Counted from the first letter of the stretch, positions 44,101 through 44,622 are shown. The stretch is 64,000 bases of DNA from Escherichia coli (GCF_030013595.1 NZ_CP122768.1), one strand, 5' to 3'. Program-made: numbers and translations. The notes: generated by a model not told the origin, from the sequence alone.

Positions 44101-44321
44101 CCGTTATGACTCCCTGTTATCCGTTATCAAGCTGGTGGATGATCATGGATAACCCGTTATGGGAATCCCCATATCGGCATCAGGCCCATGCCATAACAAA
44201 AACCCCATATTCGTGGGTTTTCTGTGTTGTGGCTATTCTGCCGTTGCCGTGCTGGTGGATATTTCCGGTATGTGGCTCACCATATCGGCATCACGCCCAC
44301 CAGCGCGACGCATTTTTTTAA
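44101..44321. repeat. degenerate tandem duplication (about 120 bp unit), non-coding
   Basis: repeated blocks ccgttat..., gctggtggat..., c(c/a)ccatatcggcatca(g/c)gcccat/ccagc. Confidence 0.5.
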
Positions 44322-44622
44322 TTTCGCGGGTGTAAAAATTTGACGGGGCGGGCGGTCCTATAAGCAATGGGGGGTAGGGATTTCGATCCCCCCTCCTGAA
44401 TGCAATTTTCCGTATGTGGCTGTGCGGCAATCATACTCGTCACATGTTTTTGACAATAAAAGGCCCGACCGTGAGACTCACAAACAAAAAAGTTACGGAG
44501 AAACAGGGGATCGGGCTCGGTTGCCGCTAAATCTATTCAATTAAAAGAAGATGTCAATAGGGAAAACGAAAAAAAACAATGCTGATATTGTCATAATTTG
44601 AACAAAACCACTATATGTAGTT

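What the first reader, a model, noticed from the sequence alone, without database searches (positions are those of the whole stretch)
44101..44400. Repeat-rich non-coding tail of the island, with a G-rich GGGCGGGCGGTCCT motif and hairpin
A degenerate tandem duplication of about 120 bp (blocks gctggtggat..., ccatatcggcatca...) is followed by ggggcgggcggtcct, which resembles lambdoid cosN-like G-rich sequences, and then the hairpin ggggggtagggatttcgatcccccc. There is no convincing ORF; the 81 aa ORF here is repeat-derived. This could be a cos-like site, a small RNA, or a decayed gene.
Basis: inference. Interest (0 to 1): 0.3.

Follow-up and report, generated by a model that had tools for sequence, protein, structure and literature searches.

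The report
Helper-phage cos site on satellite island
The G-rich motif is a DNA-packaging (cos) site copied almost exactly from phiP27/HK97-type phages, lying at the far end of a 10-kb phage-satellite island inserted at the proL tRNA gene, so a helper phage could cut and package the island; this is a known parasitic strategy, but this cos type does not appear in the papers on E. coli satellites that I could find.

Summary
The window is E. coli-like chromosome. A roughly 10.2-kb integrase-bearing satellite lies between yejO and proL, and 44101-44400 is its non-coding distal tail.

The G-rich motif is a cos site of the HNH-dependent phiP27/HK97 class, not the lambda class. Window 44315-44358 is identical over 44 nt to phage phiP27 across its annotated cos-site. 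The deposited end of the Burkholderia phage phi1026b genome falls exactly at 44344|44345. This makes GGGGCGGGCG (44345-44354) the 10-nt cohesive end. In 16 of 17 IMG/VR contigs carrying the motif, it lies between HNH and a P27-family terS.

The "hairpin" contains an ATTT/C-run element held at a fixed distance from the cut in HK97, phi1026b, phiP27 and satellites. Its outer G6:C6 stem is not conserved.

The "duplication" is an expanded, 174-nt version of a 62-63-nt satellite unit bounded by inverted Chi octamers (GCTGGTGG...CCACCAGC).

The 81-aa ORF is not a gene, and nothing supports a small RNA.

Most likely mechanism: helper cos mimicry, as in SaPIbov5 and P4. This is a new member of a known kind and of moderate interest. 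The Chi-flanked block is unexplained.

The parts
43974..43985 (.). Distal att core: a degenerate copy (TGGTCACGAGAG, with a 2-nt deletion) of the 15-nt 3' end of tRNA-Pro(GGG). It marks the far boundary of the island.
   Evidence: The K-12 empty site joins the yejO terminator directly to TGGTCGGCACGAGAG of proL. The related island L010 keeps the intact 15-mer here.
44047..44072 (.). 26-nt direct repeat CGTATAGCTtAACGTGTAGCTAAAAA, made of two RTAGCTWWA motifs. Probably integrase arm-type sites at the distal arm.
   Evidence: It is repeated at 54028-54053 with 96% identity. Seven of the 11 RTAGCTWWA matches in the window lie at the two island ends. The integrase has an Arm-DNA-bind_3 domain.
44131..44193 (+). 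Repeat unit copy 1. It has a Chi octamer GCTGGTGG at 44131-44138, and its 3' arm is degenerate (CCCATGCC instead of CCCACCAGC).
44194..44250 (.). Segment between the two repeat copies. It is absent from satellites that carry a single unit, and it contains a weak terminator-like hairpin at 44204-44217 (+).
   Evidence: Window 44189-44264 has no counterpart in L005.
44251..44304 (+). Repeat unit copy 2. It runs from a Chi octamer (44251-44258, + strand) to an inverted Chi (CCACCAGC, 44297-44304, i.e. Chi on the - strand). An 11-bp stem is possible.
   Evidence: I11; DNA fold -14.7 kcal/mol, z = -2.05.
44313..44344 (-). cos left flank, on the terS / first-packaged side. Positions 44316-44330 correspond to +15..+29 from the cut, which is where HK97 TerS binds (a CCCG core followed by an A/T tract).
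   Evidence: Identical to phiP27 from 44315 onward. Conserved in Burkholderia phages whose records start here. The HK97 TerS minimal site is at +15..+29 (PMC11331095). Function is inferred by position.
44345..44354 (.). The 10-nt cohesive-end sequence GGGGCGGGCG. The cut is predicted between 44344 and 44345.
   Evidence: It aligns with the phiP27 misc_feature 'cos-site' (NC_003356 21806-21815). The phi1026b left end stops at ...TTTGAC, and its right end reads GAAGCGGGCG|GTCC in this orientation.
44355..44393 (.). cos right flank, on the HNH / last-packaged side.
   Evidence: An ungapped alignment of the window, phiP27, the HK97 right end, the phi1026b right end and a type-2 satellite keeps GGCGGTC and TTT....C.CCCC in register.
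44885..45137 (.). Seven TTGACAC repeats between the cos tail and the last island gene. They are candidate binding sites for the adjacent HTH protein.
   Evidence: Seven of the 13 matches in the window cluster here. (D2, D6).
45147..45674 (-). 175-aa protein with an N-terminal Xis/MerR/TerS-like winged helix-turn-helix and a C-terminal domain of unknown fold. It is the last gene before the tail.
   Evidence: phrog_57 (terminase small subunit) E = 5.4e-7 over residues 1-42. HTH_17. AlphaFold pLDDT 88.9. Only the N-terminus matches a PDB fold, Pukovnik Xis, prob 0.96. Homologues occur across Enterobacterales.
48530..48856 (.). TCCTCACTTTT iterons downstream of the RepA-like helicase gene (48855-50270, - strand). 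Probably the island replication origin.
   Evidence: D1, D9. AAA_25 helicase.
52721..53962 (-). Tyrosine integrase of the island.
   Evidence: Phage_integrase, Phage_int_M and Arm-DNA-bind_3 domains.
53979..54053 (.). Five RTAGCTWWA arm-type motifs at the int-proximal arm, including the 26-nt repeat at 54028-54053.
54172..54248 (-). tRNA-Pro(GGG), proL. Its 3' 15 nt (54172-54186) form the proximal att core.

Best explanation
Window 44313-44393 is a cohesive-end packaging site (cos) of the phiP27/HK97 class. It is carried at the distal end of a roughly 10.2-kb PICI-like phage satellite integrated at the 3' end of proL.

Proposed mechanism:
- After excision and replication, the terminase of a phiP27-like helper (P27-family TerS, TerL and the HNH endonuclease) binds the left flank (44313-44344, identical to the phage's).
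- It cuts at 44344|44345 to give the 10-nt end GGGGCGGGCG.
- It then packages towards lower coordinates, across the att junction and round the island, until the next cos.

Because the TerS-side flank is an exact copy of the phage's, the island probably uses plain cos mimicry, as SaPIbov5 and P4 do. It probably does not use an Rpp-type change of specificity.

Four island copies total about 40.8 kb, which is 96% of the 42.6-kb phiP27 genome. This fits packaging of multimers into full-size heads.

The repeats at 44131-44304 are an expanded copy of a satellite-specific unit bounded by inverted Chi octamers. My best guess, held with low confidence, is that the Chi on the + strand protects the cos-cut left end from RecBCD.

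What is shown: sequence identity, register with physical phage ends, gene context in phages, and conservation and position in satellites. What is inferred: cleavage, overhang polarity, TerS binding, helper identity, multimer packaging and the role of Chi.
For: - Match to phiP27. 82 nt match the annotated cos-site of phiP27 (85.7% identity, E = 5e-14 against 2.3 Gb of phage DNA), and 44 nt are identical (44315-44358).
- Physical genome ends. Records of the Burkholderia phages phi1026b, phiE125, vB_SR1 and vB_RY3 begin or end exactly at ...AAAATTTGAC. The phi1026b right end supplies GAAGCGGGCG|GTCC. HK97 ends show the same layout and C-run.
- Phage context. In 16 of 17 IMG/VR contigs with the exact motif, it lies between HNH and a P27-family terS, about 45 bp before terS, with terL following. 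The same holds in E. coli prophages L008 and L009.
- Position in satellites. The element is always at the int-distal end. It occurs at three chromosomal sites: proL/yejO (window, L001, L006, L010), smrA (L005, L011) and dinD (L012). It also lies after terL in capsid-encoding islands (L007, L024, L040).
- Conservation. The core is conserved while the flanks diverge.
- Second cos type. A second helper cos left-flank type (prophage L042; phages mEp235 and phi467) is matched by a second group of satellites. This is independent support for cos mimicry.
- TerS site. The HK97 TerS site lies at +15..+29 from the cut (PMC11331095), which corresponds to 44316-44330.
- Island definition. Boundaries are set by the K-12 empty site. 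The island has an integrase, a RepA-like helicase with iterons, and no terminase, capsid or lysis genes.
Against: - No experiment here shows cleavage or transfer.
- No helper lies in the 64-kb window.
- Only 18 of 5426 complete E. coli genomes have a full phiP27-type terS-cos-HNH, whereas at least 220 carry the satellite-type tail. Cognate helpers therefore look scarce, although prophage content is only a proxy.
- The right flank differs from the phage's between GTCC and the C-run, and this could affect cutting.
- Some relatives have a diverged core and may be inactive: E. coli 042 reads GGGGCGGACAGTTCC, and L007 reads GAGGTGAGCACTC.
- I could not read the phiP27 paper to confirm that its cos annotation was determined experimentally.
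Confidence: 0.85

Rival explanations
1. The cos-like sequence is an inert relic. It would be left over from a decayed phiP27-like prophage, or from a capsid-forming PICI that lost its packaging genes, and it would no longer be used.
For: The island has no HNH, terS or terL. Capsid-encoding relatives (L024, L040) carry the same tail after their own terL, so descent by deletion is conceivable. Some relatives have degraded cores.
Against: The 44-nt core is identical to the phage's, while everything around it has diverged or been rearranged. The element holds a constant position at the end of satellites with different integrases and different cargo. A second satellite group tracks a second helper cos type. 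No terS or HNH gene fragments flank it.
Confidence: 0.08
2. The region encodes a small RNA or a transcription terminator. On this reading, the Chi-bounded hairpin followed by a T-run, or the G6/C6 hairpin, acts at the RNA level.
For: The 11-bp stem 44248-44258 / 44297-44307 is followed 5 nt later by T7. There is a weak terminator-like site at 44204-44217. A promoter-like site on the - strand at 44557-44530 points into the region.
Against: No Rfam match even at E <= 5. No + strand promoter was found, and promoter and terminator counts are at or below shuffle expectation. The G6/C6 hairpin is no more stable than shuffles, and its 5' arm is not conserved. The T-run is part of the phage-conserved cos flank. 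The unit's interior tolerates insertions of 24-170 nt.
Confidence: 0.05
3. The repeats at 44100-44310 belong to the recombination apparatus (attP arm, excisionase or IHF sites) and are unrelated to packaging or to RecBCD.
For: They lie 115-330 bp from the att core, next to the arm-type repeat. CCGTTAT recurs at 44101, 44121 and 44154.
Against: The same unit, including the CCGTTAT motifs, occurs in satellites at smrA, at dinD and inside prophage genes. These have different att sites, and their integrases are only about 23% identical. In most relatives its 3' half is directly contiguous with the cos left flank.
Confidence: 0.1
4. It is a lambda-type cos used with an Rpp-like specificity switch, as in EcCICFT073. 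The 175-aa HTH protein would play the role of Rpp, and the TTGACAC repeats would serve as a private cosB.
For: The motif superficially resembles GGGCGGCGACCT. The adjacent 175-aa protein has a TerS-like N-terminal HTH (phrog_57, E = 5e-7) and sits next to a repeat array. Other satellites carry their own iterons at the same place.
Against: The best phage matches are all of the phiP27/HK97 class, with none to lambda or phi80. The TerS-side flank is the phage's own, so no switch is needed. The 175-aa protein has no sequence or fold match to RppC or lambda TerS in the PDB. The TTGACAC array lies 540-790 bp away, on the opposite side from the phage TerS site.
Confidence: 0.07

Closest known systems
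cos site of phage phiP27 (NC_003356 21806-21815) and of HK97-like, HNH-dependent cos phages (HK97, Burkholderia phi1026b/phiE125)
   Same: 44 nt are identical to phiP27. The 10-nt cohesive-end sequence is the same. GGCGGTC and the ATTT/C-run are conserved in register with the HK97 and phi1026b ends. A CCCG + A/T tract lies where HK97 TerS binds.
   Different: Here the site is not flanked by HNH and terS genes. It lies in a satellite tail next to att. Between GTCC and the C-run the sequence is a satellite-specific variant.
SaPIbov5 and other cos-type SaPIs (Quiles-Puchalt et al. 2014, as cited in PMC6092414 and PMC5052747)
   Same: The satellite carries its helper's cos site. It depends on the helper's TerS, TerL and HNH endonuclease for packaging, and it has no terminase of its own.
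   Different: SaPIbov5 is in a Gram-positive host, and its DNA is unrelated. It encodes Ccm to make small capsids. This island has DUF2213/phrog_6216 proteins of unknown role.
EcCICFT073 cos1/cos2 with Rpp (PMC6092414, PMC6739421)
   Same: An E. coli PICI of about 10 kb with its cos at the int-distal end. It lacks capsid genes, and packaging as multimers in full-size heads has been proposed.
   Different: EcCICFT073 has lambda-type cosQ/cosN with a private cosB read by Rpp-TerS, and HK97 is insensitive to it. Here the cos is phiP27-type, the TerS-side flank is unaltered, and no Rpp homologue was detected.
Capsid-forming PICIs (EcCIEDL933 family; bioRxiv 10.1101/2022.09.08.507074)
   Same: Elements with the cf-PICI gene order (..HNH-terS-terL, then the tail) carry the same tail: the Chi unit, type-1 cos and satellite right flank (L024, L040). 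L040 also shares ProQ at 89% identity.
   Different: Those elements encode their own HNH, TerS, TerL and capsid. This island encodes none of them. I did not examine EcCIEDL933 itself.
P4 satellite cos
   Same: A satellite that carries the helper's (P2's) cos unchanged.
   Different: It has a 19-nt P2-type cohesive end, the sequence is unrelated, and the terminase family is different.

Membership tests
phiP27/HK97-class cos site (HNH-dependent) | Sequence homology to a phage cos across the cleavage position | tested here: met
   82 nt at 85.7% identity, E = 5e-14. 44 nt identical to phiP27 across its annotated cos-site.
phiP27/HK97-class cos site (HNH-dependent) | Register with physically determined genome termini | tested here: met
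   The deposited ends of phi1026b, phiE125 and other Burkholderia phages fall at ...TTTGAC | GAAGCGGGCG, which corresponds to 44344|44345. HK97 ends align without gaps.
phiP27/HK97-class cos site (HNH-dependent) | In phages, the site lies between the HNH endonuclease gene and terS-terL | tested here: met
   True for 16 of 17 IMG/VR contigs and for the prophages L003, L008, L009 and L042. The island itself lacks these genes, as expected for a satellite.
phiP27/HK97-class cos site (HNH-dependent) | Cleavage by TerL/HNH giving a 10-nt 3' overhang, and TerS binding at +15..+29 | not testable with these tools
   Only positional analogy with HK97 is available (PMC11331095).
lambda-class cos (cosQ-cosN-cosB, 12-nt 5' end GGGCGGCGACCT) | Lambda cosN sequence with homology to the lambda/phi80 cos region | tested here: not met
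   The motif is GGGGCGGGCGGTCC. No lambda or phi80 record appears among the phage hits.
PICI-like phage satellite | Site-specific integrase with direct-repeat att sites; about 10 kb in size; own replication module; no virion or lysis genes | tested here: met
   Integrase next to proL. 15-nt att core at both ends. About 10.2 kb. RepA-like AAA_25 helicase plus iterons. No terminase, capsid, tail or lysis hits.
PICI-like phage satellite | Induction, replication and high-frequency transfer dependent on a helper phage | not testable with these tools
   Requires experiments.
Rpp-type packaging redirection | Rpp homologue plus a cosB different from the helper's | tested here: not met
   The TerS-side flank is identical to phiP27's. 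The 175-aa HTH protein has no PDB sequence match (E <= 10). Its only fold match is a generic Xis/MerR wHTH.
Bacterial small RNA / Rfam family | Match to a covariance model, or a promoter plus terminator bounding a conserved structure | tested here: not met
   No Rfam match in 44100-44400 at E <= 5. No + strand promoter.
Chi (crossover hotspot instigator) site | Exact octamer 5'-GCTGGTGG-3' | tested here: met
   44131 (+), 44251 (+), 44297 (-). Three are found in 245 bp against 0.07 expected. RecBCD response was not tested.
Protein-coding gene (81-aa ORF 44076-44321) | Conserved homologues or a domain match | tested here: not met
   One homologue in 5.8e9 clusters. No Pfam or PHROG hit. The region is length-polymorphic.

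The most novel reading that the evidence does not exclude
The tail is a portable satellite 'end module'. It combines a swappable helper-specific cos left flank, a satellite-specific right flank, and a conserved inverted pair of Chi sites. The Chi pair would act as a built-in anti-RecBCD device, standing in for a Gam-type inhibitor by protecting the cos-cut left end, and possibly as a recombination hotspot that lets satellites exchange cos specificities. A further possibility the evidence does not exclude is that terminase-less islands like this one are packaged by the terminase of co-resident capsid-forming PICIs, which carry the same cos. That would make this island a satellite of a satellite.
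Probability: 0.2. Interest if true: 0.65.

Novelty: new member of a known kind. Interest (0 to 1): 0.42.

Why it matters
- It gives a specific, testable helper assignment for a widespread group of E. coli islands. Satellite-type tails occur in at least 220 of 5426 complete genomes. The predicted helpers are phiP27-type phages, a group that includes the Stx2e-converting phage phiP27.
- It extends cos mimicry in E. coli satellites from the lambda class to the HNH-dependent class.
- Two helper-specific left-flank types sit on one common satellite tail. This suggests modular switching of helper range.
- Mapping such cos sites improves annotation. RefSeq annotates spurious "hypothetical proteins" across this tail.
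- It also helps predict which islands a given prophage can mobilise.

Tried and rejected
- Tandem Repeats Finder found nothing. The repeat is too degenerate and is interrupted.
- Rfam gave no match in the region, either at gathering thresholds or at E <= 5.
- The promoter and terminator scan was at or below chance.
- The G6/C6 hairpin is not thermodynamically unusual.
I therefore have no taxonomic picture beyond E. coli, IMG/VR and the phage records.
- The phiP27 genome paper was not available.
- The 175-aa HTH protein was modelled (pLDDT 88.9) and searched against the PDB. Only the N-terminal Xis/MerR-like wHTH matched, with no Rpp or TerS relationship.
- I did not attempt covariation analysis of the Chi-bounded hairpin, because its stems are invariant among the few distinct variants.
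- Co-occurrence of the island with a cognate helper could not be tabulated. The genome search lists only the best place per record. ETEC4090, which has a near-identical island, carries a prophage with the other (type-2) cos.

Full report
**Setting**

The window is E. coli-like chromosome. ORF 41282-43873 (+) is the autotransporter YejO. tRNA-Pro(GGG), proL, lies at 54172-54248 (-).

In K-12 the yejO terminator is joined directly to the 3' end of proL (...gggattttTGGTCGGCACGAGAGGATTTGAACC). In the window about 10.2 kb is inserted between them. The 15-nt tRNA end TGGTCGGCACGAGAG is intact at 54172-54186. A degenerate copy, TGGTCACGAGAG, lies at 43974-43985, and a related island (L010) keeps the perfect 15-mer there.

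The insert encodes:
- a tyrosine integrase with an arm-binding domain (52721-53962);
- small HTH and Icd-like genes;
- a RepA-like AAA_25 helicase followed by TCCTCACTTTT iterons;
- ProQ/FinO and PerC;
- two proteins matching parts of phrog_6216/DUF2213;
- a 175-aa HTH protein.

It encodes no terminase, capsid, tail or lysis genes. RTAGCTWWA motifs cluster at both ends of the island, accounting for 7 of the 11 in the window, as expected for integrase arm sites.

**Observation**

All the described strings are present.
- The repeat is real but untidy. It consists of a 20-nt segment at spacing 120 and a 35-nt segment at spacing 111. The alignment score is 41, against 14.6 +/- 2.2 in shuffles, with 0 of 1000 reaching 41. 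TRF finds nothing.
- The hairpin GGGGGGTAGGGATTTCGATCCCCCC (44369-44393) folds, but no better than shuffles (z = -0.95).
- The 81-aa ORF has no family match and a single homologue among 5.8 billion clusters.

**What the G-rich motif is**

A search of 50,697 phage records found one strong match. Window 44315-44396 aligns with phage phiP27 at 85.7% identity over 82 nt (E = 5e-14), on a feature annotated "cos-site".

The alignment shows 44 identical bases, TTTTTAATTTCGCGGGTGTAAAAATTTGAC|GGGGCGGGCGGTCC (44315-44358). The phiP27 10-nt cos feature corresponds to window 44345-44354.

The weaker hits are informative. Burkholderia phages phi1026b, phiE125, vB_SR1, vB_RY3 and others match at the very first or last bases of their linear records. 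The phi1026b record ends, in window orientation, exactly at ...AAAATTTGAC. Its other end reads GAAGCGGGCG GTCC....

HK97, whose cos gives a 10-nt 3' overhang and needs the HNH protein gp74 (PMC11331095), has TTTGGCGGCG GTCAT...GATTTGATCCCCCCCC at its right end. An ungapped alignment of the right flanks of the window, phiP27, HK97, phi1026b and another satellite keeps GGCGGTC and TTT....C.CCCC in the same columns.

Its outer G6 arm reads GGGTTG in most relatives, so a hairpin as such is probably not the functional form.

On the other side of the cut, positions +15 to +29 (44316-44330) read CCCGCGAAATTAAAA. HK97 TerS binds +15..+29 of its own cos, which is CTAACCCGATTTTTT, also a GC core followed by an A/T tract. 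Assigning this flank as the TerS site is an inference from position.

**Context in phages and satellites**

An exact-pattern scan of IMG/VR found 17 contigs. In 16 of them the site lies between an HNH endonuclease gene and a P27-family terS that starts about 45 bp after the cut, followed by terL. E. coli prophages show the same arrangement.

In complete E. coli genomes the element occurs in 340 of 5426 genomes, at 389 places. In 220 genomes it covers the satellite-specific flanks.

In satellites it always lies at the int-distal end:
- at proL/yejO (window, L001, E. coli 042, L010);
- at smrA (L005, L011);
- at dinD (L012);
- after terL in capsid-encoding islands (L007, L024, L040).

The core is conserved while the neighbouring sequence is rearranged.

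A second line of evidence is independent of the first. Satellites of the L010/L011 type share the window's right flank but have a different left flank, [49 protein letters not shown]. That flank matches the cos of another set of P27-terS-family prophages and phages: ETEC4090 prophage L042, mEp235 and phi467. Two satellite groups thus each copy the TerS-side flank of a different helper type.

**Mechanism**

I conclude with a confidence of about 0.85 that this is a functional cos, used by helper cos mimicry as in SaPIbov5 and P4.

Because the TerS-side flank is unaltered, an Rpp-like switch (PMC6739421) is unnecessary. The neighbouring 175-aa protein shows no Rpp or TerS relationship beyond a generic Xis/MerR-type winged HTH.

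Packaging would run towards lower coordinates, across att. Four island copies total about 40.8 kb, 96% of the phiP27 genome, which fits multimer packaging as proposed for EcCICFT073 (PMC6092414). Cleavage, overhang polarity, helper identity and multimer packaging are all inferred.

**The repeats**

The "gctggtgg" blocks are Chi octamers, on the + strand at 44131 and 44251 and on the - strand at 44297.

Other satellites carry a single 62-63-nt unit, GCTGGTGGATGATCACGGATAACCCGTTATGGGAATCCCCATATCGGCATCAYGCCCACCAGC. Its ends are conserved and its interior takes insertions, giving versions of 87, 91, 174 and 235 nt. The window and L001 have the 174-nt version. In most type-1 satellites the 3' half of the unit runs straight into the cos left flank.

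The unit occurs with unrelated integrases, so it is not an att arm. phiP27 has no Chi within 1.5 kb on that side of its cos.

The + strand Chi is oriented so that RecBCD entering at the cos-cut left end would recognise it. The island as a whole has 14 Chi in 10.2 kb against 2.8 expected from the flanking chromosome (P = 2e-6), and the tail has 3 against 0.07 expected.

Protection from RecBCD is my preferred reading, but it is weakly supported. The tails are homologous rather than independent, the local chromosome also favours + strand Chi, and the inverted partner is unexplained.

**Alternatives**

- An inert relic (0.08) is unlikely, given the perfect core within diverged surroundings and the constant position.
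- A small RNA or terminator (0.05) has no support from Rfam, promoters or conservation.
- Lambda-type cos with Rpp (0.07) fails on sequence class.
- A recombination-arm role for the repeats (0.1) is contradicted by their presence with other integrases.

**Novelty**

The papers I could search describe lambda-type cos sites with Rpp in E. coli PICIs (PMC6092414, PMC6739421, PMC9026076). They also describe HNH-type packaging genes inside capsid-forming PICIs (bioRxiv 10.1101/2022.09.08.507074). I found no description of terminase-less E. coli satellites carrying a phiP27-type cos.

This is a new member of a known kind. The Chi-bounded unit and the shared satellite right flank are the unexplained parts.

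Noticed in passing
window 43974-54186 (whole island): Chi octamers are about five-fold enriched in the island: 14 in 10.2 kb, against 15 in the other 53.8 kb of the window (Poisson P = 2e-6). They are split 8 on the + strand and 6 on the - strand, whereas the flanking chromosome is strongly skewed (12 + and 3 -).
   Followed up: partly
window 44885-45137: Seven TTGACAC repeats lie just downstream of the 175-aa HTH gene. Other satellites have different iterons at the equivalent place: TGTCAC in L010 4085-4135, ACCCGTCCC in L006 7130-7165, and GCGGGTTAT in L012, L007 and L024. Their function is unknown. They may be a private DNA-binding array for the adjacent protein.
   Followed up: partly
window 45845-47156 (-): Two adjacent proteins (217 aa with DUF2213, and 197 aa) match separate parts of one 545-position PHROG profile (phrog_6216). 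They also match a head maturation protease family weakly (phrog_530, E = 6e-5). They could be a split or remodelled capsid-assembly factor used to interfere with the helper.
   Followed up: no
L042 (E. coli ETEC4090, NZ_CP122620.1 3031956-3039375) and L007 (strain 10): In both, the terL gene of a P27-terS-family prophage is interrupted by an integrase-bearing element. In L007 the inserted element is a capsid-encoding island. These look like the helper-embedded PICIs described in PMC10111431.
   Followed up: no
L012 5682-6170 (NZ_CP032892.1) and other RefSeq records: RefSeq annotates a 'hypothetical protein' running across the Chi unit, the cos site and the C-run in several genomes. This is almost certainly a spurious gene call over a non-coding packaging site.
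   Followed up: partly
phiP27 terS-cos-HNH query against E. coli genomes: Many prophages match phiP27 only from the cos core rightwards (query 518-937, covering HNH and the right flank) and have a different terS and left flank. The cos cut site thus appears to be a mosaic breakpoint between packaging-specificity modules.
   Followed up: partly
window 43974-43985: The displaced copy of the tRNA 3' end at the far att site carries a 2-nt deletion. This fits the 'damaged attR tRNA fragment' phenomenon reported for PICIs in PMC10111431.
   Followed up: no
window 44427-44724: This stretch has no counterpart in the otherwise 98-99% identical island of strain ETEC6335 (L001). The segment right of the cos tail is therefore a variable spot. 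It contains a 76-aa ORF (44623-44853, -) with no family match.
   Followed up: no
window 19003-19096 and 15266-15342: MicF sRNA and naRNA4 are detected at Rfam gathering scores, which confirms the ompC-micF neighbourhood. They are unrelated to the finding.
   Followed up: no
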